IMG/VR virus record: IMGVR_UViG_3300020049_005532
Coordinates: 22,466-86,465 of that record
DNA: 64,000 nucleotides
Origin: a virus
Lineage: Duplodnaviria; Heunggongvirae; Uroviricota; Caudoviricetes
Reading direction: 5' to 3' (one strand)
The number at the start of each line of letters is the position of its first letter. Within the stretch, counting starts at the first letter, position 1. The notes beneath the pieces are model-generated. The model had not been told where the DNA came from and ran no database searches. It saw only the letters and a list, made by a program, of their open reading frames with translations. Positions 26,821-30,593 of the stretch are shown piece by piece. The position numbers were made by a program, and so were the translations under genes.

Positions 26821-26999
26821 GAGATTTCTTCCCAACCACCATCATTGAGCAATTCTTCTTCGGAATAACCCATGCCAGCAGGCCCTCCATCCCAAATCGA
26901 GTAGTCAAAATCAATTGGGATAGAAAAATTTACCAAACAAATTCTATATGTTAACTCATAATTTTTATTGGTAAAAGTGCTATTTTTAAAGATCTTCAT
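26817..26999 (-). CDS. Small hypothetical protein (60 aa).
   Basis: ORF track. Confidence 0.25.
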   Translation of the reverse strand: MKIFKNSTFTNKNYELTYRICLVNFSIPIDFDYSIWDGGPAGMGYSEEELLNDGGWEEIS

Positions 27000-27571
27000 G
27001 TTATCTCATCAATCAAATTTAAATCCAAAGCTTGTTCAGGCGTTAAAATAGTATCAAACTTTAATAATTCCTTAACCTGACGCTTGGTATATTTAGGCTG
27101 TTTTACCTGGATCTTTCTCAAGATAATGTCCTCAAATATCAGCTCGTCCTTTTCGTGTTGTTCCATCCAGCGTTTATTGATTTCTGGATGGTTCATCTCT
27201 AAGCCCATTTGACCAGTATGAAGCATCATTCTTGAGTTTTTGGACATGACTCTGTGATCGGCAGCTTGCAGTATCCAAGCAGCAATACTCATTACCGCGC
27301 CATAAGCTTTAATCGTCACATGGTTCTTACATTCGGTAATGGCGTCATAGATGGCCATGCCAGATCCCTGATCGCCTCCTAGCGAGTTTAAAAGGATTGT
27401 AATGGGCTTTCCTTCGGCTTGTGAAGAATGGTCTAGGACATGTAATGCCTTAATGACTTTAGCCGCAAGCTCTGCTGTCACTTCTTCGTGCATAATGTCA
27501 ATAGTTCTTGTTGGCACATAGATACCATGATCATAAAATTGGTCAACAAAGTCTTTATCGCTGCGTTTCAT
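26996..27571 (-). CDS. ClpP-like serine protease subunit (copy 1).
   Basis: ILLNSLGGDQGSGMAIYDAI...VTIKAYGAVMSIAAWILQAAD...RVMSKNSRMMLHTGQ parallels ClpP [35 protein letters not shown]. Confidence 0.8.
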   Translation of the reverse strand: MKRSDKDFVDQFYDHGIYVPTRTIDIMHEEVTAELAAKVIKALHVLDHSSQAEGKPITILLNSLGGDQGSGMAIYDAITECKNHVTIKAYGAVMSIAAWILQAADHRVMSKNSRMMLHTGQMGLEMNHPEINKRWMEQHEKDELIFEDIILRKIQVKQPKYTKRQVKELLKFDTILTPEQALDLNLIDEIT

Positions 27572-27839
27572 CGATGCCTTTTTTCTCTAGAACTTTTGTA
27601 TGACGAATAAGATGCGAGTTTAAAACCATCTGGGCATCATACAAGTCTTCTAGTAGTTTTAATACAAATATAAAGTTTCTGTGAGGAATAAGTATTTTGT
27701 AACATTGATCAAGAGCTATCATTGCCGCTTTAATCTGTGGAACATATTTTTTAGCTTTTTGATAAGCAAGGAAGTCAACGGATTTAACGTTGGTGTCAAT
27801 TTCTGTCGGTTTAGATTTAAACGGATTAAAGAAGCTCAT
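27555..27839 (-). CDS. Hypothetical protein (94 aa).
   Basis: ORF track. Confidence 0.35.
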   Translation of the reverse strand: MSFFNPFKSKPTEIDTNVKSVDFLAYQKAKKYVPQIKAAMIALDQCYKILIPHRNFIFVLKLLEDLYDAQMVLNSHLIRHTKVLEKKGIDETQR

Positions 27840-27843
27840 AATT

Positions 27844-28290
27844 CAATCCAGCTATCTGGCCCAAGCTTGCCGTGCCTATAGTGATCAAGGTTTATTTTAT
27901 CTAGACTATCACCAAAATATAAATCAAATTTTTTAAATCGGATTCTATAACTAATTAGCATGGCGTTAGGTCTGTAAAATTTTTGTTTATAAATTATCAT
28001 AATTTTATTTCTTTAATCCAAGGATAATTGTCCAGATTATTTAATACACTAAGATGCGGATCACTTTCCCAAAAAATAATTATAACTTTTTTATCTAATT
28101 CTAGTAGATAACGAAAAGAAACGTCGTTGTCTTTAAAAAGTTTCATAATTTAATTTCTTTAACTATCTTTGTTAAATGAACTATTTCCGCAGAAACCCCT
28201 GCCCAATGACTTAAACAAGTTAATTCAATAACTAATTTATCAAGTGTTAGGATATATCTGTCTTGTAAGCCAGAAACTTTATAAAGAAAC
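27844..28290 (-). other. Cluster of two or three sub-60-aa ORFs absent from the ORF track (e.g. MIIYKQKFYRPNAML... and MKLFKDNDVSFRYLLELDKK...). Boundaries are approximate.
   Basis: Hand translation of the - strand. ATGA-type coupling between consecutive ORFs. Confidence 0.3.
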
Positions 28291-28294
28291 AATC

Positions 28295-29428
28295 TCAATG
28301 GAACTCCGTATTATGCTTTTGAAGATAATAGGCGTCGCTAATCCATTTTAGAGCAACTCTGGTTAAAGATCCGGTTGATTTTTCGATTACAGGCTTAACT
28401 ACAATACCCTCTCGAACACAACCAAAATCCTCTCCGTCTCGAAGCAGCGAAATCTTTTCTTTATCCCAAGGACCCACATAAAGCTCTGGGACTGTTTCTA
28501 ATCCCATAGATTGAGCTTCTTCTTTAAAGTCACTGTGATTTAAATAACTTTGATCATCATTAAACATGATATCAAATATATAAAGTTTATGTTCATCTTT
28601 CCCGCACCCATACGGATAGTTTTTCTGAATACCGTCGCCAACAATTTCACCGTAAATAGTGTAACCGTCTTGAATTTTATCTTTTAAATCATATTGATTT
28701 ACTATTTTAGTGTAAACGTCGCCAAAATTTACACCTTGACTTGGAATGTTTACGCCTGGATGTTTCTTTCCTGGCTTGCTAGAGATTTCAACCGTTCTGC
28801 TTCCCCAAACAAACTCATATTGGGGCAACAAACCAAAATATTTTTTAATTTTTTTCCAAGGGGTATTAGCAACAGTTCGGACCCATCCAGCGCGAAAGTT
28901 AGTTCCGTGAAGTTTGGCACTAACATAAACTAGTTCGCCGTCTTGAAAGGATCGGTCATAGTTTTTAAAATGTTCGAGCTTTGAGTATTCTTTAAAGTCC
29001 GGATGTTTTTTCTTAGTTGAAACTGCTTTAACTCGCATTGCATTTGGTAGTTCAGCTTCTGGTTGTTCGTATTTTGAAATGCCCAATACACCAGATAAGT
29101 CGGTCTCGACTTCAGCGGTAATTCCGAGAACTTCAGGCTTCACTGCCATACCTTGACTAATCTGGCCACGAAGTTTAATAGAGCGCACTCGATGTTTAGT
29201 TAGCTTGACCTTTGAATCTGAACCAAAGATTTTATCTTCCAGATCTTGGGTTAAAATGCTGTCTACGGGAATATAGACAACTAGTTCTCCTTGAGCAAAA
29301 TCATCTTTTTTTACTACAACGTCCCAGTCATAAATTTTGACAATATCAAGTGCGTCAGCGTTTGGGTGCGTTTTAACTTCTCGAATTACTGTCAATGGAA
29401 CTTTAAATGTGCTCATTCGAATATCCAA
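28295..29428 (-). CDS. Rnl2-like RNA ligase fused to an N-terminal tRNA-binding (Myf/Trbp111-like) OB domain.
   Basis: N-terminus HPNADALDIVKIYDWDVVV...LRGQISQGM matches the tRNA_bind HPNADKL pattern. Ligase motif I SAKLHGTNF matches T4 Rnl2 EKIHGTNF. Motif III is YGEIVG and motif IV is EGIVVKP. Confidence 0.7.
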   Translation of the reverse strand: MDIRMSTFKVPLTVIREVKTHPNADALDIVKIYDWDVVVKKDDFAQGELVVYIPVDSILTQDLEDKIFGSDSKVKLTKHRVRSIKLRGQISQGMAVKPEVLGITAEVETDLSGVLGISKYEQPEAELPNAMRVKAVSTKKKHPDFKEYSKLEHFKNYDRSFQDGELVYVSAKLHGTNFRAGWVRTVANTPWKKIKKYFGLLPQYEFVWGSRTVEISSKPGKKHPGVNIPSQGVNFGDVYTKIVNQYDLKDKIQDGYTIYGEIVGDGIQKNYPYGCGKDEHKLYIFDIMFNDDQSYLNHSDFKEEAQSMGLETVPELYVGPWDKEKISLLRDGEDFGCVREGIVVKPVIEKSTGSLTRVALKWISDAYYLQKHNTEFH

Positions 29429-29937
29429 TTGTATGTTTCTAAACTTCTAATAAATTTAGATTTACTGTTAAAAAACTTAGGAATACCAATACAACTCTTA
29501 TACAAAAACCCAACACAAAGGATTAAGTCGGCGTCTTGAGGCTTTTTTGGTTCAGCGTAAGCATAGCCGTTCTTCATAAAAGAGTATTTGCCCAAAGTCT
29601 GTCCTTGTCCAATAACAATACTTCTTTTTTTGCCCATTGTCAAGCATTTTTTAAGATCATCTATAACTTTTTCGTTTTTAAGCTTTAATCCAGAATAAAA
29701 AACAAGATTATGACGACCAAAAAGATTGTTATCATATATTACCATGTGACCAAAAACGCGATTTGTCACTTTATGGGGTATTTTCTTTTCAACCAACATT
29801 CGATTTACTGACTCTAGCTTTGGAACCGAAATTACAAAGGGATCTAGAGCGTGACGCGAACAAAGGTCAAGATAATAGTCAATATCCGTTGTGGTGTTAT
29901 CACAAAATATAAAGGCTTTAACCTTGACCTCAGACAT
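29413..29937 (-). CDS. Hypothetical protein (174 aa).
   Basis: ORF track. Confidence 0.35.
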   Translation of the reverse strand: MSEVKVKAFIFCDNTTTDIDYYLDLCSRHALDPFVISVPKLESVNRMLVEKKIPHKVTNRVFGHMVIYDNNLFGRHNLVFYSGLKLKNEKVIDDLKKCLTMGKKRSIVIGQGQTLGKYSFMKNGYAYAEPKKPQDADLILCVGFLYKSCIGIPKFFNSKSKFIRSLETYNWIFE

Positions 29938-29939
29938 TT

Positions 29940-30593
29940 TTACTTCTTTTTCTTTGATTTTTTCTCTGGACCTTGGACGGGTTTCTTTTCAAATGTAACA
30001 AGTTGCGAAGACAGACGAATTTCTTGTTGCATCAATCGAGGATAGCCAATATGATCGACAAGCCCAAGTTTTAGTGCGTCTTCTGGAGTAAGATAAAGGT
30101 CGCCATTTGAACGGGACTTCATTTTTGTTTCCCAGAATGCCGGAGTTTTATTTGTGTCTTCTGCAAAGTTTCCAATAACAAATTTATTCATTCTGGCAGT
30201 CTCTTCAATAGAAATTTGCATATCGTTAAGTTTGCCCACTGTGCCGCTCGATACTTCATGCAGCATTACAGACGTGCTAGGCGAAGCAAATCGCAGACCT
30301 TTCGATCCGGCTGCTAGCAAGAATGCGCCAGCTGACATGGCTTTACCGTAAGCAATAGTAGCAACTTGTTTATTAGAAGACTTAATTAGATCTCGCATGG
30401 CCATCATATTGTGAGCAGACCCGCCATAAGAACTAATCACGATTTGAATAGTTCCAACTTCTGGATTCTGTTCTGCATCAATAAATCGCTTAGTAAAATC
30501 TTTAAGTCCACTATCACTAAAACTACTAACCCAGATTGGTCCTGTTTCAGATAGTTCCAATCCCTCGATCTGTGGCATCATCATTGTCTTCAT
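29940..30593 (-). CDS. ClpP-like serine protease subunit (copy 2).
   Basis: IVISSYGGSAHNMMAMRDLI...ATIAYGKAMSAGAFLLAAGSKGLRFASPSTSVMLHE parallels ClpP [31 protein letters not shown]. Confidence 0.8.
   Translation of the reverse strand: MKTMMMPQIEGLELSETGPIWVSSFSDSGLKDFTKRFIDAEQNPEVGTIQIVISSYGGSAHNMMAMRDLIKSSNKQVATIAYGKAMSAGAFLLAAGSKGLRFASPSTSVMLHEVSSGTVGKLNDMQISIEETARMNKFVIGNFAEDTNKTPAFWETKMKSRSNGDLYLTPEDALKLGLVDHIGYPRLMQQEIRLSSQLVTFEKKPVQGPEKKSKKKK

What the first reader, a model, noticed from the sequence alone, without database searches (positions are those of the whole stretch)
26996..30593. Two divergent ClpP-like protease genes outside the structural module, with no ClpX/ClpA partner
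Both the 191-aa and the 217-aa protein align block-for-block with ClpP. They share the nucleophile-Ser segment (AVMSIAAW / AMSAGAFLL) and the His segment (MMLHTGQ / VMLHEVS).

They are not next to capsid genes, so a prohead-protease role is not obvious. They flank the RNA ligase gene. Possible roles are hetero-oligomeric ClpP1P2-type complexes, hijacking of host ClpX, or degradation of host defence proteins.
Basis: partly seen in the sequence, partly recalled or inferred. Interest (0 to 1): 0.55.

Follow-up and report, generated by a model that had tools for sequence, protein, structure and literature searches.

The report
Paired stand-alone phage ClpP-like proteases
An uncultured 86-kb phage carries two divergent but catalytically intact ClpP-type protease genes inside its DNA-replication operon; this pairing recurs in other phages, and the proteins lack the features ClpP uses to dock ClpX/ClpA, so they are probably intracellular phage proteases of unknown target rather than capsid-maturation enzymes or ordinary ClpXP parts.

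Summary
Two minus-strand ORFs, ClpP-A (29940-30593, 217 aa) and ClpP-B (26996-27571, 191 aa), match Pfam CLP_protease at E 7e-30 and 3.5e-25. They are 29% identical to each other. Both keep Ser-His-Asp (A S87/H112/D165; B S95/H118/D173), and both model confidently as ClpP folds (pLDDT 90 and 94).

They sit in a conserved replication operon: PolB, MoxR, VWA-metallopeptidase, ClpP-A, a variable slot, ClpP-B, exonuclease, dUTPase. The RNA ligase between them is cargo of that slot: one relative has nothing there and another has an AAA ATPase.

A and B belong to two large phage subfamilies, each with at least 550 IMG/VR matches. Their neighbours are mostly replication and nucleotide-metabolism genes, not head genes. 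A+B pairs recur in at least 8 contig groups, but most members occur singly.

Both score far below NCBI's cut-offs for cellular ClpP and for ClpP-related head-maturation protease. Neither conserves the N-terminal gating region, the IGF-loop docking pocket or the Asp/Arg ring sensor. The window encodes no ClpX/ClpA-like protein.

Relatives' head modules have a scaffold-like protein and no protease, so a maturation role is unlikely but not excluded.

Verdict: a new variant of a known but uncharacterised kind, of moderate interest.

The parts
29940..30593 (-). ClpP-A, 217 aa (JGI called it from Met5, 213 aa). A ClpP-fold serine peptidase with triad S87/H112/D165. The N-terminus (1-19) is disordered and non-conserved, the handle helix spans 122-146, and a 35-aa C-terminal tail ends in KKSKKKK.
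   Evidence: PF00574 at 104.7 bits. PDB ClpP alignments. AF2 pLDDT 90.3. Foldseek top hits are all ClpP, TM about 0.8. Family conservation and the polybasic tail. NCBIfam: 79 bits against 308.6 for the ClpP equivalog and 53 against 120 for the head-maturation family.
26996..27571 (-). ClpP-B, 191 aa. A ClpP-fold serine peptidase with triad S95/H118/D173, all invariant in 91 homologues. It has a short conserved N-terminus (helix 5-15, no hairpin), a handle helix at 129-157 and no C-terminal extension.
   Evidence: PF00574 at 89.4 bits. PDB alignments. AF2 pLDDT 93.8. Foldseek best hit is Listeria ClpP1/2 4ryf, TM 0.86. Family conservation. NCBIfam: 49 bits against 308.6 and 71 against 120.
29413..29937 (-). 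174-aa ORF of unknown function. Its start overlaps the ClpP-A stop. It is conserved directly downstream of ClpP-A in relatives (185-186 aa) and is a candidate accessory protein or substrate.
   Evidence: ORF list. No Pfam or PHROG hit. Homologues in L011 and L014/15 at 28% identity in the same position.
27555..27839 (-). 94-aa ORF of unknown function. It overlaps the ClpP-B start by 17 nt and is conserved just upstream of ClpP-B in L014/15, and at the corresponding position in L010, which lacks ClpP-B.
   Evidence: homologues in L010 and L014/15 at 37-40% identity.
30547..31049 (-). Two small conserved ORFs (105 aa at 30732-31049; 61 aa at 30547-30732) between the VWA gene and ClpP-A. Function unknown.
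   Evidence: No family hits for the 105-aa ORF. Homologues in L010, L011 and L014/15.
28295..29428 (-). RNA ligase, 377 aa. It is cargo of the variable slot between the two ClpP genes and is not functionally tied to them.
   Evidence: PF09414 and PF21189; phrog_968 at E 2e-63. The slot is empty in L011/12 and holds a classical AAA ATPase in L014/15.
31058..33420 (-). MoxR-type AAA+ ATPase (32347-33420) and a DUF2201 HExxH-metallopeptidase/VWA protein (31058-32347). They are conserved upstream neighbours of ClpP-A in this lineage. The MoxR protein is the only AAA+ protein in the window.
   Evidence: PF07728 and PF20030; PF13203 and PF09967. Conserved in L010, L011 and L014/15 at 48-61% identity.

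Best explanation
ClpP-A and ClpP-B are two catalytically competent, stand-alone ClpP-fold serine peptidases from two distinct phage-specific subfamilies. They are encoded inside, and most likely co-transcribed with, the replication and nucleotide-metabolism operon. They therefore act in the cytoplasm of the infected cell during genome replication, not inside the procapsid.

From the retained core and long handle helix, I infer that they assemble into ClpP-like ring and barrel particles. Because the pair is conserved, a mixed A/B particle analogous to ClpP1P2 is the favoured arrangement in this phage.

Both lack the conserved N-terminal gate, the IGF-loop docking pocket and the inter-ring Asp/Arg sensor. 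I therefore infer that they do not work as ordinary ClpXP/ClpAP cores. They are either ungated, ATPase-independent degraders of peptides and unfolded proteins, or they use a non-canonical partner. In several related phages a small classical-clade AAA ATPase is encoded next to the B-type gene; this phage has none.

Shown: fold, triad, subfamily status, gene order and its conservation, neighbourhood statistics. Inferred: oligomeric state, hetero-assembly, independence from ClpX/ClpA, time of expression, substrates.
For: - Fold and active site.
- The genes lie on the replication strand with overlapping or abutting neighbours, between PolB/MoxR/VWA and exonuclease/dGTPase/dUTPase.
- This order is conserved in L010, L011/12 and L014/15.
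- Neighbour census: 149 genes next to B-type ClpPs (three nearest genes of at least 150 aa per locus, 50 distinct viral contigs) are dominated by primase, DNA polymerase, exonuclease, ligase and helicase. 147 genes next to A-type ClpPs are dominated by DnaB, primase, SbcCD, DHFR and ThyA. RNR homologues occur near 38/80 A loci. No portal, capsid or terminase family is in either top 25.
- A+B pairs within 10 kb occur in the window lineage, L016/17, L022, L023 (22-nt spacer), L053, L054/56, L061/64/65 and L087.
- Docking and gating features are not conserved.
- Both score below the ClpP equivalog and head-maturation cut-offs.
- No unfoldase in the window.
- A classical AAA lies next to B-type ClpP in about 7 lineages.
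Against: - Most A-type and B-type genes in IMG/VR occur without the other type within 10 kb: 6 of 62 and 3-4 of 40 de-duplicated loci are paired. The syntenic relative L010 has A only. Hetero-assembly therefore cannot be obligatory.
- In one sub-lineage (L001-7, L101/103/105) the A-type gene heads a cluster with capsid, tail-fibre-like and virion-structural genes.
- Loss of gate and docking pocket is also what one expects of a capsid-internal protease.
- 22 kb of the source contig is unseen and could encode a partner ATPase.
- Promoter and terminator scans were uninformative, so co-transcription is inferred from gene packing only.
- Pocket and sensor residues were mapped with E. coli and S. 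aureus reference sequences and residue lists recalled from memory. The S. aureus segment agrees with the PDB alignment printed.
Confidence: 0.55

Rival explanations
1. Canonical hijack. The phage ClpPs replace or supplement host ClpP and are driven by host ClpX/ClpA/ClpC through the normal IGF-loop and N-loop interface, redirecting host AAA+ unfoldases to phage-chosen substrates.
For: Intact triads and a ClpP fold with a handle helix. ClpP-A scores best against cellular ClpP models. No phage unfoldase in the window. Nearly all bacteria have ClpX (general knowledge).
Against: - Pocket residues Y60/Y62/F82/L114 (E. coli numbering) are Q/V/S/S in A and T/L/E/S in B, and they are not hydrophobic family-wide.
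- The N-terminus of A is disordered and variable. That of B is a short helix with no similarity to the gating motif.
- Both score at 16-26% of the TIGR00493 cut-off.
- In real ClpP1P2 systems at least one paralogue keeps the docking surface (for the systems; the detail is from general knowledge).
Confidence: 0.12
2. Displaced head-maturation or virion-protein-processing protease(s). One or both are packaged into procapsids and cleave scaffold or internal proteins, even though they are encoded far from the head genes.
For: - The best PHROG hits are 'head maturation protease' families.
- ClpP-B scores about equally against the ClpP-related head-maturation model and cellular ClpP models.
- Relatives' head modules contain no protease.
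- Their capsid protein matches the capsid part of ClpP-protease/capsid fusion families.
- A-type genes sit in the structural region in L001-7.
- Loss of gate and docking sites fits an ATPase-free capsid-internal enzyme.
- The basic tail of A could be a targeting signal.
Against: - The genes lie on the opposite strand to the structural operon and inside the replication operon, in this lineage and in most of about 100 other lineages.
- Both score below the NF045542 cut-off, 53 and 71 bits against 120.
- ClpP-B has no extra domain, and L010 lacks it altogether. This patchiness is odd for an essential assembly enzyme.
- The head module has a helical, His-poor, scaffold-like ~240-aa protein and a ~310-aa capsid protein without a delta domain. 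That is the layout of protease-independent assembly.
- A separate trypsin-like protease lies at the edge of the structural module.
Confidence: 0.15
3. Two independent homo-oligomeric proteases with separate jobs. A and B do not co-assemble. Each forms its own particle, and their proximity reflects only that both are replication-module accessory genes. A may be DNA- or membrane-associated through its polybasic tail, and B may work with a classical AAA where one is present.
For: - Most family members occur singly within 10 kb.
- L010 has A only, and L018/19 show B only in the 20 kb seen.
- The AAA co-occurs with B, not with A-only loci.
- The polybasic tail is specific to A.
- The two are only 29% identical and differ in their handle and N-terminal regions.
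Against: A+B pairs recur in at least 8 distinct contig groups, sometimes with a 22-nt spacer typical of co-translated subunits. Both are retained together in window, L011/12, L014/15 and L016/17 despite turnover of the genes between them.
Confidence: 0.3

Closest known systems
Bacterial ClpP1P2 hetero-tetradecamers (Mycobacterium tuberculosis, Listeria monocytogenes)
   Same: Two divergent ClpP paralogues are encoded close together on one strand. The best structural matches of the models are these very complexes: 4u0g for A and 4ryf for B. Core fold and handle helix are retained.
   Different: In those systems one paralogue keeps the ATPase-docking surface and the complex is driven by ClpX/ClpC. 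Here neither paralogue does, both have full triads, and the pairing is not obligatory across the families. Hetero-assembly is untested.
Canonical cellular ClpP (TIGR00493; E. coli and S. aureus ClpP)
   Same: PF00574 membership, Ser-His-Asp triad, ClpP fold with rmsd about 2 Å.
   Different: The scores are 79 and 49 bits against a cut-off of 308.6. There is no conserved N-terminal axial loop, docking-pocket residues are replaced, and the Asp170/Arg171-type sensor is absent. ClpP-A has a 35-aa polybasic tail.
ClpP-related phage head-maturation proteases (NCBIfam NF045542, NF045540; PHROG 94/133)
   Same: Phage-encoded ClpP-fold domain without a ClpX-type interface. The best PHROG hits are to these families.
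   Different: Both score below the curated cut-off. They are not between portal and capsid genes, are not fused to a scaffold or capsid protein, and lie in the replication operon on the other strand.
Stand-alone ClpP genes of large and jumbo phages, noted as patchily distributed, possibly host-directed peptidases (Iyer et al. 2021, PMC7824862). Other examples are phage P26059A (PMC5964084) and Tsamsa/Izhevsk ClpP next to DNA ligase.
   Same: ClpP genes outside head modules, near DNA-metabolism genes, with no demonstrated function.
   Different: Here there are two paralogues of different subfamilies in a mid-sized (86 kb) podophage-like genome. Identity to any cultured-phage ClpP is at most 38% for ClpP-A and at most 33% for ClpP-B over the best local matches. 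The paired arrangement was not found in the literature searched.

Membership tests
ClpP superfamily (Pfam PF00574 / MEROPS S14) | Score above the Pfam gathering threshold | tested here: met
   89.4 bits (B) and 104.7 bits (A) against 20.2.
ClpP superfamily (Pfam PF00574 / MEROPS S14) | ClpP alpha/beta fold with handle helix | tested here: met
   AF2 pLDDT 90.3 and 93.8. Foldseek top 50 hits are all ClpP, with TM 0.74-0.89 normalised by target length and 0.67-0.84 by query length.
ClpP superfamily (Pfam PF00574 / MEROPS S14) | Ser-His-Asp catalytic triad | tested here: met
   A has S87/H112/D165 and B has S95/H118/D173 by alignment. Ser and His are invariant in both families. Asp is 36/41 in A and 91/91 in B. 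3D distances could not be measured because model coordinates are not exposed.
Canonical ATP-dependent ClpP (ClpXP/ClpAP core; TIGR00493) | Score above the curated equivalog cut-off | tested here: not met
   A scores 79.3 and B 48.7 bits against 308.6. Against subfamily NF001368 they score 93 and 63.5 against 249.
Canonical ATP-dependent ClpP (ClpXP/ClpAP core; TIGR00493) | Conserved N-terminal axial loop / gate | tested here: not met
   In A, residues 1-19 have low confidence, are variable in length (0-72) and are unconserved. In B, 22 residues precede strand 1, residues 5-15 are predicted as a helix, and there is no similarity to the gating motif.
Canonical ATP-dependent ClpP (ClpXP/ClpAP core; TIGR00493) | Hydrophobic IGF/LGF-loop docking pocket (E. 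coli Y60, Y62, F82, I90, M92, F112, L114, L189; list recalled from memory) | tested here: not met
   A has Q, V, S, I, Y, F, S, G. B has T, L, E, K, Y, V, S, T. The family-wide residue spectra are similar.
Canonical ATP-dependent ClpP (ClpXP/ClpAP core; TIGR00493) | Inter-ring Asp/Arg oligomerisation sensor next to the catalytic Asp (S. aureus D170/R171; from memory) | tested here: not met
   A has N163/G164 and B has K171/F172. Position 172 is Phe in 78/91 B homologues.
Canonical ATP-dependent ClpP (ClpXP/ClpAP core; TIGR00493) | Works with a ClpX/ClpA/ClpC unfoldase | not testable with these tools
   None is encoded in the 64-kb window. Use of a host enzyme needs biochemistry.
ClpP-related head-maturation protease (NF045542 / PHROG 94) | Score above the curated cut-off | tested here: not met
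   A scores 53.2 and B 71.1 bits against 120. Against the fusion family NF045540 they score 40.5 and 61 against 475.
ClpP-related head-maturation protease (NF045542 / PHROG 94) | Encoded in the head module (portal, protease, scaffold, capsid) or fused to a scaffold or capsid protein | tested here: not met
   The genes lie in the replication operon on the opposite strand. Neighbour censuses show no head or packaging families in the top 25. Exception: an A-type sub-lineage lies near capsid and tail-fibre-like genes.
ClpP-related head-maturation protease (NF045542 / PHROG 94) | Present in procapsids and cleaves capsid or scaffold proteins | not testable with these tools
   This needs proteomics. 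Relatives' head modules have a scaffold-like protein, no protease and a capsid protein with no delta domain.
ClpP1P2-type heteromeric ClpP | Two paralogous clpP genes kept together | tested here: met
   Both are retained in window, L011/12, L014/15 and L016/17. A+B pairs also occur in six more contig groups.
ClpP1P2-type heteromeric ClpP | Obligate co-occurrence of the two subunit types | tested here: not met
   Only 6/62 B loci and 3-4/40 A loci have the other type within 10 kb. L010 has A only. The view is limited to ±10 kb.
ClpP1P2-type heteromeric ClpP | Physical mixed tetradecamer with one ATPase-binding face | not testable with these tools
   No multimer prediction was available. Neither paralogue shows a docking face.
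NfeD/STOPP ClpP-fold proteases (partners of SPFH proteins) | NfeD1b_N score above cut-off, Ser-Lys dyad, membrane and OB domains | tested here: not met
   ClpP-A scores 30.4 bits against 40. It has His and Asp, and no extra domains. An SPFH gene exists 14 kb away but is not adjacent.

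The most novel reading that the evidence does not exclude
ClpP-A and ClpP-B form a phage-specific mixed proteolytic barrel, a 'phage ClpP1P2', that has given up the ClpX/ClpA interface. It would gain access to substrates in one of three ways: (i) stacking onto a host ClpP ring, as Listeria ClpP1 rides on ClpP2; (ii) pairing with a dedicated small classical-clade AAA unfoldase, encoded next to B-type genes in several related phages and exchangeable in the same slot that here holds the RNA ligase; or (iii) being tethered to DNA by the polybasic tail of A to clear host nucleoid, replication or defence proteins during phage DNA synthesis. 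That would define a virus-encoded compartmentalised protease system distinct from ClpXP and from prohead proteases.
Probability: 0.15. Interest if true: 0.75.

Novelty: new variant of a known kind. Interest (0 to 1): 0.45.

Why it matters
Stand-alone ClpP genes are common in phage genomes: each of the two subfamilies seen here has at least about 550 IMG/VR matches. Pipelines label them either 'ATP-dependent Clp protease' or 'head maturation protease'. For these two subfamilies both labels fail curated thresholds, and the genomic context argues against the second.

If the proteins are active cytoplasmic proteases made alongside the replication machinery, they are candidate tools for remodelling the host proteome, recycling amino acids or removing host factors. 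The recurring A+B pair, and the B+AAA association, would be a tractable entry point to a function that nobody has assigned.

Practically, the result warns against annotating every phage ClpP-fold protein as a prohead protease.

Tried and rejected
- Recovering the unseen 22 kb of the source contig failed. Exact-protein look-ups of ClpP-A, of the JGI-called 213-aa form and of the 772-aa fibre protein were not on record. Single-protein IMG/VR scans found no ClpP relative. An exact 44-mer from the window start is absent from the metagenome collection. The head module was therefore judged from relatives (L008, L196, L197), which share only the fibre-side genes.
- BLASTP found no homology between the window's 135/288-aa structural pair and the 131-135/289-291-aa genes that follow A-type ClpP in L001-7. 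The 'ClpP moved out of a homologous structural operon' idea could not be supported.
- The AAA-domain protein next to ClpP in Bacillus phage Izhevsk looked like a cultured example of the AAA+ClpP module. It is unrelated to the L014/L018 AAA family (E 0.15) and sits with RNA-repair genes, so I dropped it.
- Promoter and terminator consensus scans were at shuffle level: 50 against 45±6 promoters, and 16 against 10±2.5 terminators, mostly inside genes. They are uninformative about transcription units.
- No Pfam or PHROG assignment was obtained for the conserved small ORFs around the ClpP genes (174, 105 and 94 aa). A ClpS-like adaptor was considered and not detected.
- An NfeD/SPFH pairing was considered because of the Band-7 gene at 44402-45181 and a weak NfeD1b_N hit. 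I rejected it on score, triad type and distance.
- Literature searches found no study of paired phage ClpPs or of the function of replication-module phage ClpPs.

Full report
**1. What is there**

I call them ClpP-A (29940-30593, 217 aa) and ClpP-B (26996-27571, 191 aa). Each has a plausible ribosome-binding site.

Both match Pfam CLP_protease (PF00574) far above threshold: A at 104.7 bits, E 7e-30, and B at 89.4 bits, E 3.5e-25, against a cut-off of 20.2. They are only 29% identical to each other. Proteins 100% identical over the aligned length are recorded on an 86,465-bp JGI metagenome contig, which is evidently the source of the window. There, ClpP-A was called from a downstream start as a 213-aa product.

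HMMER alignments to solved ClpPs, and a MAFFT alignment with E. coli and S. aureus ClpP, place Ser, His and Asp on the catalytic-triad columns: A S87/H112/D165 and B S95/H118/D173. The S. aureus segment agrees with the PDB chain printed. In 41 A-type and 91 B-type homologues, Ser and His are invariant. Asp is 36/41 in A and 91/91 in B.

AlphaFold2 models are confident, with pLDDT 90.3 and 93.8. Their top 50 Foldseek matches in the PDB are all ClpP, with TM about 0.8 and rmsd about 2 Å.

**2. Where the proteins depart from textbook ClpP**

- ClpP-A has a low-confidence N-terminus of 19 residues. In its family this region varies from 0 to 72 residues and is unconserved. No helix A is predicted.
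- ClpP-A also has a 35-residue disordered C-terminal tail ending in KKSKKKK. A tail of about 33 residues ending in a Lys/Arg cluster is a hallmark of the whole A family.
- ClpP-B has a conserved but short N-terminus: 22 residues before strand 1, with residues 5-15 predicted as a helix and no similarity to the ClpP gating motif. It has no C-terminal extension.
- The residues that form the IGF/LGF-loop docking pocket in E. coli ClpP are Y60, Y62, F82, I90, M92, F112, L114 and L189 (list from memory). They read Q, V, S, I, Y, F, S, G in A and T, L, E, K, Y, V, S, T in B.
- The Asp/Arg pair next to the catalytic Asp, which senses ring-ring contact in S. aureus ClpP, is N/G in A and K/F in B. The same holds across the families.
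- Both keep a long handle helix (A 122-146; B 129-157). A also keeps the Gly-rich handle-strand pattern.

Against NCBIfam, A and B score 79 and 49 bits on the ClpP equivalog TIGR00493 (cut-off 308.6). They score 53 and 71 bits on 'head maturation protease, ClpP-related' NF045542 (cut-off 120). They are members of the ClpP superfamily, but of neither curated functional family.

**3. Genomic setting**

The window holds a plus-strand structural operon at 1-20.7 kb. It has podophage-type proteins, including a GP4 gp80-like fibre protein and an SU10-type adaptor. This converges on a long minus-strand block of replication and nucleotide-metabolism genes.

In transcription order, the minus-strand block is:
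- DnaB-type helicase, then PolB;
- MoxR-type AAA+, then the DUF2201 metallopeptidase/VWA protein;
- 105 aa, 61 aa, ClpP-A, 174 aa;
- RNA ligase and small ORFs;
- 94 aa, ClpP-B;
- Mre11-like exonuclease, HNH, dGTPase-like, dUTPase;
- further on, a trypsin-like protease.

Further upstream on the same strand, before the helicase, lie ThyA, DNA ligase and RNR.

Many neighbours overlap or abut, which suggests polycistronic expression. Consensus promoter and terminator scans were at shuffle level and add nothing.

No cultured phage is close: the best ClpP matches are at or below 38% identity and the best PolB match is 23%.

**4. Relatives**

Four metagenomic contig groups (L010, L011/12, L014/15) are true relatives. 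They share PolB, MoxR, VWA, exonuclease, dUTPase, the trypsin-like protease and the convergent structural genes, in the same order, at roughly 30-70% identity.

In L011/12 the two ClpP genes are separated only by the 186-aa and a 76-aa ORF, with no RNA ligase. In L014/15 the same slot holds a 325-aa classical AAA ATPase. L010 has ClpP-A but no ClpP-B. The RNA ligase is therefore cargo of a variable slot, and 'they flank the RNA ligase' has no functional meaning.

An otherwise unrelated 66-kb phage (L016/17) also carries both an A-type (44% identity) and a B-type (60% identity) gene, 7 kb apart.

**5. The two families at large**

Family HMMs separate the types cleanly.

A+B pairs within 10 kb occur in the window lineage, L016/17, L022, L023 (B then A, 22-nt spacer), L053, L054/56, L061/64/65 and L087. 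That is at least eight distinct contig groups. However, only 6 of 62 de-duplicated B loci and 3-4 of 40 A loci are paired in the ±10 kb seen. The pair recurs far more often than chance would give for two rare families, but it is not obligatory.

**6. Prohead protease or not**

- For B, 149 genes were scanned, taking the three nearest genes of at least 150 aa per locus from 50 distinct contigs. The leading families are DNA primase, DNA polymerase and its exonuclease, DNA ligase, Cas4-like exonuclease, helicase, dNMP kinase and RNR.
- For A, 147 genes gave DnaB helicase/primase, SbcCD, DHFR, thymidylate synthase and exonucleases, plus a tail-fibre-like family in one sub-lineage.
- RNR homologues lie near 38 of 80 A loci.
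- No portal, capsid, scaffold or terminase family is in either top 25.

The exception is the sub-lineage L001-7 and L101/103/105. There the A-type gene, with B directly upstream in L101/103/105, heads a cluster that follows the capsid gene and contains tail-fibre-like and virion-structural genes.

The window's own head module is off its left edge. In three relatives that share the fibre-side genes (L008, L196, L197) the module runs as follows:
- an SU10-type portal;
- a 231-262-aa helical, Q/E/K/A-rich protein that is His-poor (one orthologue has no His at all), hence scaffold-like;
- a protein of about 155 aa;
- a weakly cement-like protein of 160-178 aa;
- a 305-311-aa capsid protein with no delta domain;
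- the 577-640-aa protein whose C-terminus opens our window;
- the fibre.

No ClpP-like ORF was found in any of the 44 fibre-anchored loci, even at E < 0.01.

But the layout is that of scaffold-dependent, protease-independent assembly. Taken together, four things make a maturation role the less likely reading, at about 0.15:
- the replication-operon position;
- the sub-threshold NF045542 scores;
- the patchy presence of B;
- the separate trypsin-like protease at the border of the structural module.

**7. Partner ATPase**

The window contains no ClpX/ClpA-like protein. Every ORF of about 300 aa or more was scanned against Pfam and/or PHROGs. A Walker-A scan finds only the helicase and a small kinase-like ORF, apart from isolated motif matches without a Walker B in three unrelated ORFs. 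The MoxR protein is identified by Pfam.

MoxR ATPases are chaperone-like partners of VWA proteins, not ClpP-docking unfoldases (general knowledge). Here the MoxR gene is followed by its VWA partner.

The AAA that fills the inter-ClpP slot in L014/15 belongs to the classical clade, with best PDB matches AFG2, VAT, Cdc48 and PAN at E about 1e-20. Orthologues lie within 0.3-2 kb of B-type ClpP in L018/19, L026, L049, L054/56, L060 and L087, and are essentially absent from A-only loci. This suggests a B-type ClpP plus AAA module in some phages. The window has no copy (tblastn E < 0.05). An apparent cultured example, phage Izhevsk, proved unrelated.

**8. Most likely mechanism**

Shown:
- two intact ClpP-fold peptidases of distinct phage subfamilies;
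- conserved placement inside a replication operon;
- recurrence of the pair;
- absence of the canonical gate, docking and sensor residues;
- no unfoldase in the window.

Inferred:
- they are made with the replication proteins and act in the cytoplasm;
- they form ClpP-like rings, in this lineage probably a mixed A/B particle;
- they do not function as ordinary ClpXP/ClpAP cores.

On the last point, they would be either ungated, ATP-independent degraders of peptides and unfolded proteins, or users of a non-canonical partner. Substrates are unknown. I put 0.55 on this overall picture.

The rivals are independent homo-oligomers (0.3; this overlaps the main picture in everything except co-assembly), displaced maturation proteases (0.15) and canonical host-ClpX hijack (0.12).

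**9. Relation to what is known, and novelty**

Phage ClpP genes outside head modules are known and have been flagged as patchy, possibly host-directed peptidases (PMC7824862). Other papers treat them as 'auxiliary' genes or assume a prohead role (PMC5964084; PMC6102473). No paper found in three searches describes a conserved pair of divergent phage ClpPs, their subfamily-specific loss of the ClpX interface, the polybasic tail, or the AAA association.

I rate this as a new variant of a known kind, with moderate interest (0.45). It is not a surprise in kind. It does sharpen an open question, what phage ClpPs do, into testable constructs, and it shows that both common annotations fail for these subfamilies.

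Noticed in passing
window 22170-23069 (-), 31058-33420 (-), with 26996-30593: The replication operon carries a cluster of proteolysis and chaperone genes: a MoxR AAA+, a DUF2201 HExxH-metallopeptidase/VWA protein, two ClpPs and a trypsin-like S1 protease (PF13365, E 1e-15). All are conserved in relatives L011 and L014/15. That is an unusually protease-rich non-structural region for an 86-kb phage.
   Followed up: partly
window 44402-45181 (-): A phage-encoded SPFH/Band-7 protein (PF01145, E 9e-36). In cells, SPFH genes pair with ClpP-fold NfeD proteases, and ClpP-A has a sub-threshold NfeD1b_N hit (30 bits against 40). The genes are 14 kb apart, so no link is claimed.
   Followed up: partly
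L014:8677-9654 (+); also L018:7441-8424, L026:8581-9588, L049:10721-11728, L056:11608-12642, L060:3647-4648, L087:11485-12495: A 325-344-aa single-domain classical-clade AAA ATPase (closest to AFG2/VAT/Cdc48/PAN) recurs next to B-type phage ClpPs. By eye, its Walker B reads hhhhAED in both sequences inspected (L014, L018) and the C-terminal tail carries a G[FL] motif. It is a candidate phage unfoldase partner and is absent from the window.
   Followed up: partly
window 28000-29428 (-) compared with L011:7789-8022 and L014:8677-9654: The interval between the 174-aa ORF and the 94-aa ORF is a hot spot for gene exchange. It holds an RNA ligase here, an AAA ATPase in L014/15 and nothing in L011/12.
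   Followed up: yes
window 29940-30047 (-) (C-terminus of ClpP-A) and alignment A1: A-type ClpPs carry a disordered tail of about 33 residues that ends in a Lys/Arg cluster in most of 36 homologues (for example EKKSKKKK, KKKTKKRK). Canonical ClpPs lack it. It might bind nucleic acid or serve as a targeting signal.
   Followed up: partly
L008:53-4942, L196:1838-7405, L197:22-3506: The head module of relatives is: an SU10-type portal, a scaffold-like protein of about 240 aa, a protein of about 155 aa, a weakly cement-like protein of about 165 aa, and a capsid protein of about 310 aa that matches the capsid half of ClpP-protease/capsid fusion families. There is no protease gene.
   Followed up: yes
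window 3227-3643 (+), 23093-23485 (-), 25018-25497 (-): An endonuclease VII gene sits inside the structural operon, and two HNH/AP2-type homing-endonuclease-like genes are inserted in the replication operon. The one at 25018-25497 overlaps the exonuclease gene end and sits at a different position in relatives (after the dUTPase gene in L014).
   Followed up: no
window 670-2988 (+): The 772-aa fibre protein has a C-terminal C1q-like domain (PF00386, E 8e-11). It is shared at 29-59% identity with fibres of many otherwise different metagenomic phages (43 loci), which indicates modular exchange of receptor-binding proteins.
   Followed up: partly
RefSeq NC_023007.1 against GenBank KC481682.1 (Bacillus phage Tsamsa); NC_071045.1 against MT254578.1 (Izhevsk): The same stand-alone ClpP gene, next to DNA ligase, is named 'head maturation protease' in RefSeq. 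The depositors named it 'hypothetical protein' or 'Clp protease'. This is an example of the annotation conflation discussed in the report.
   Followed up: partly
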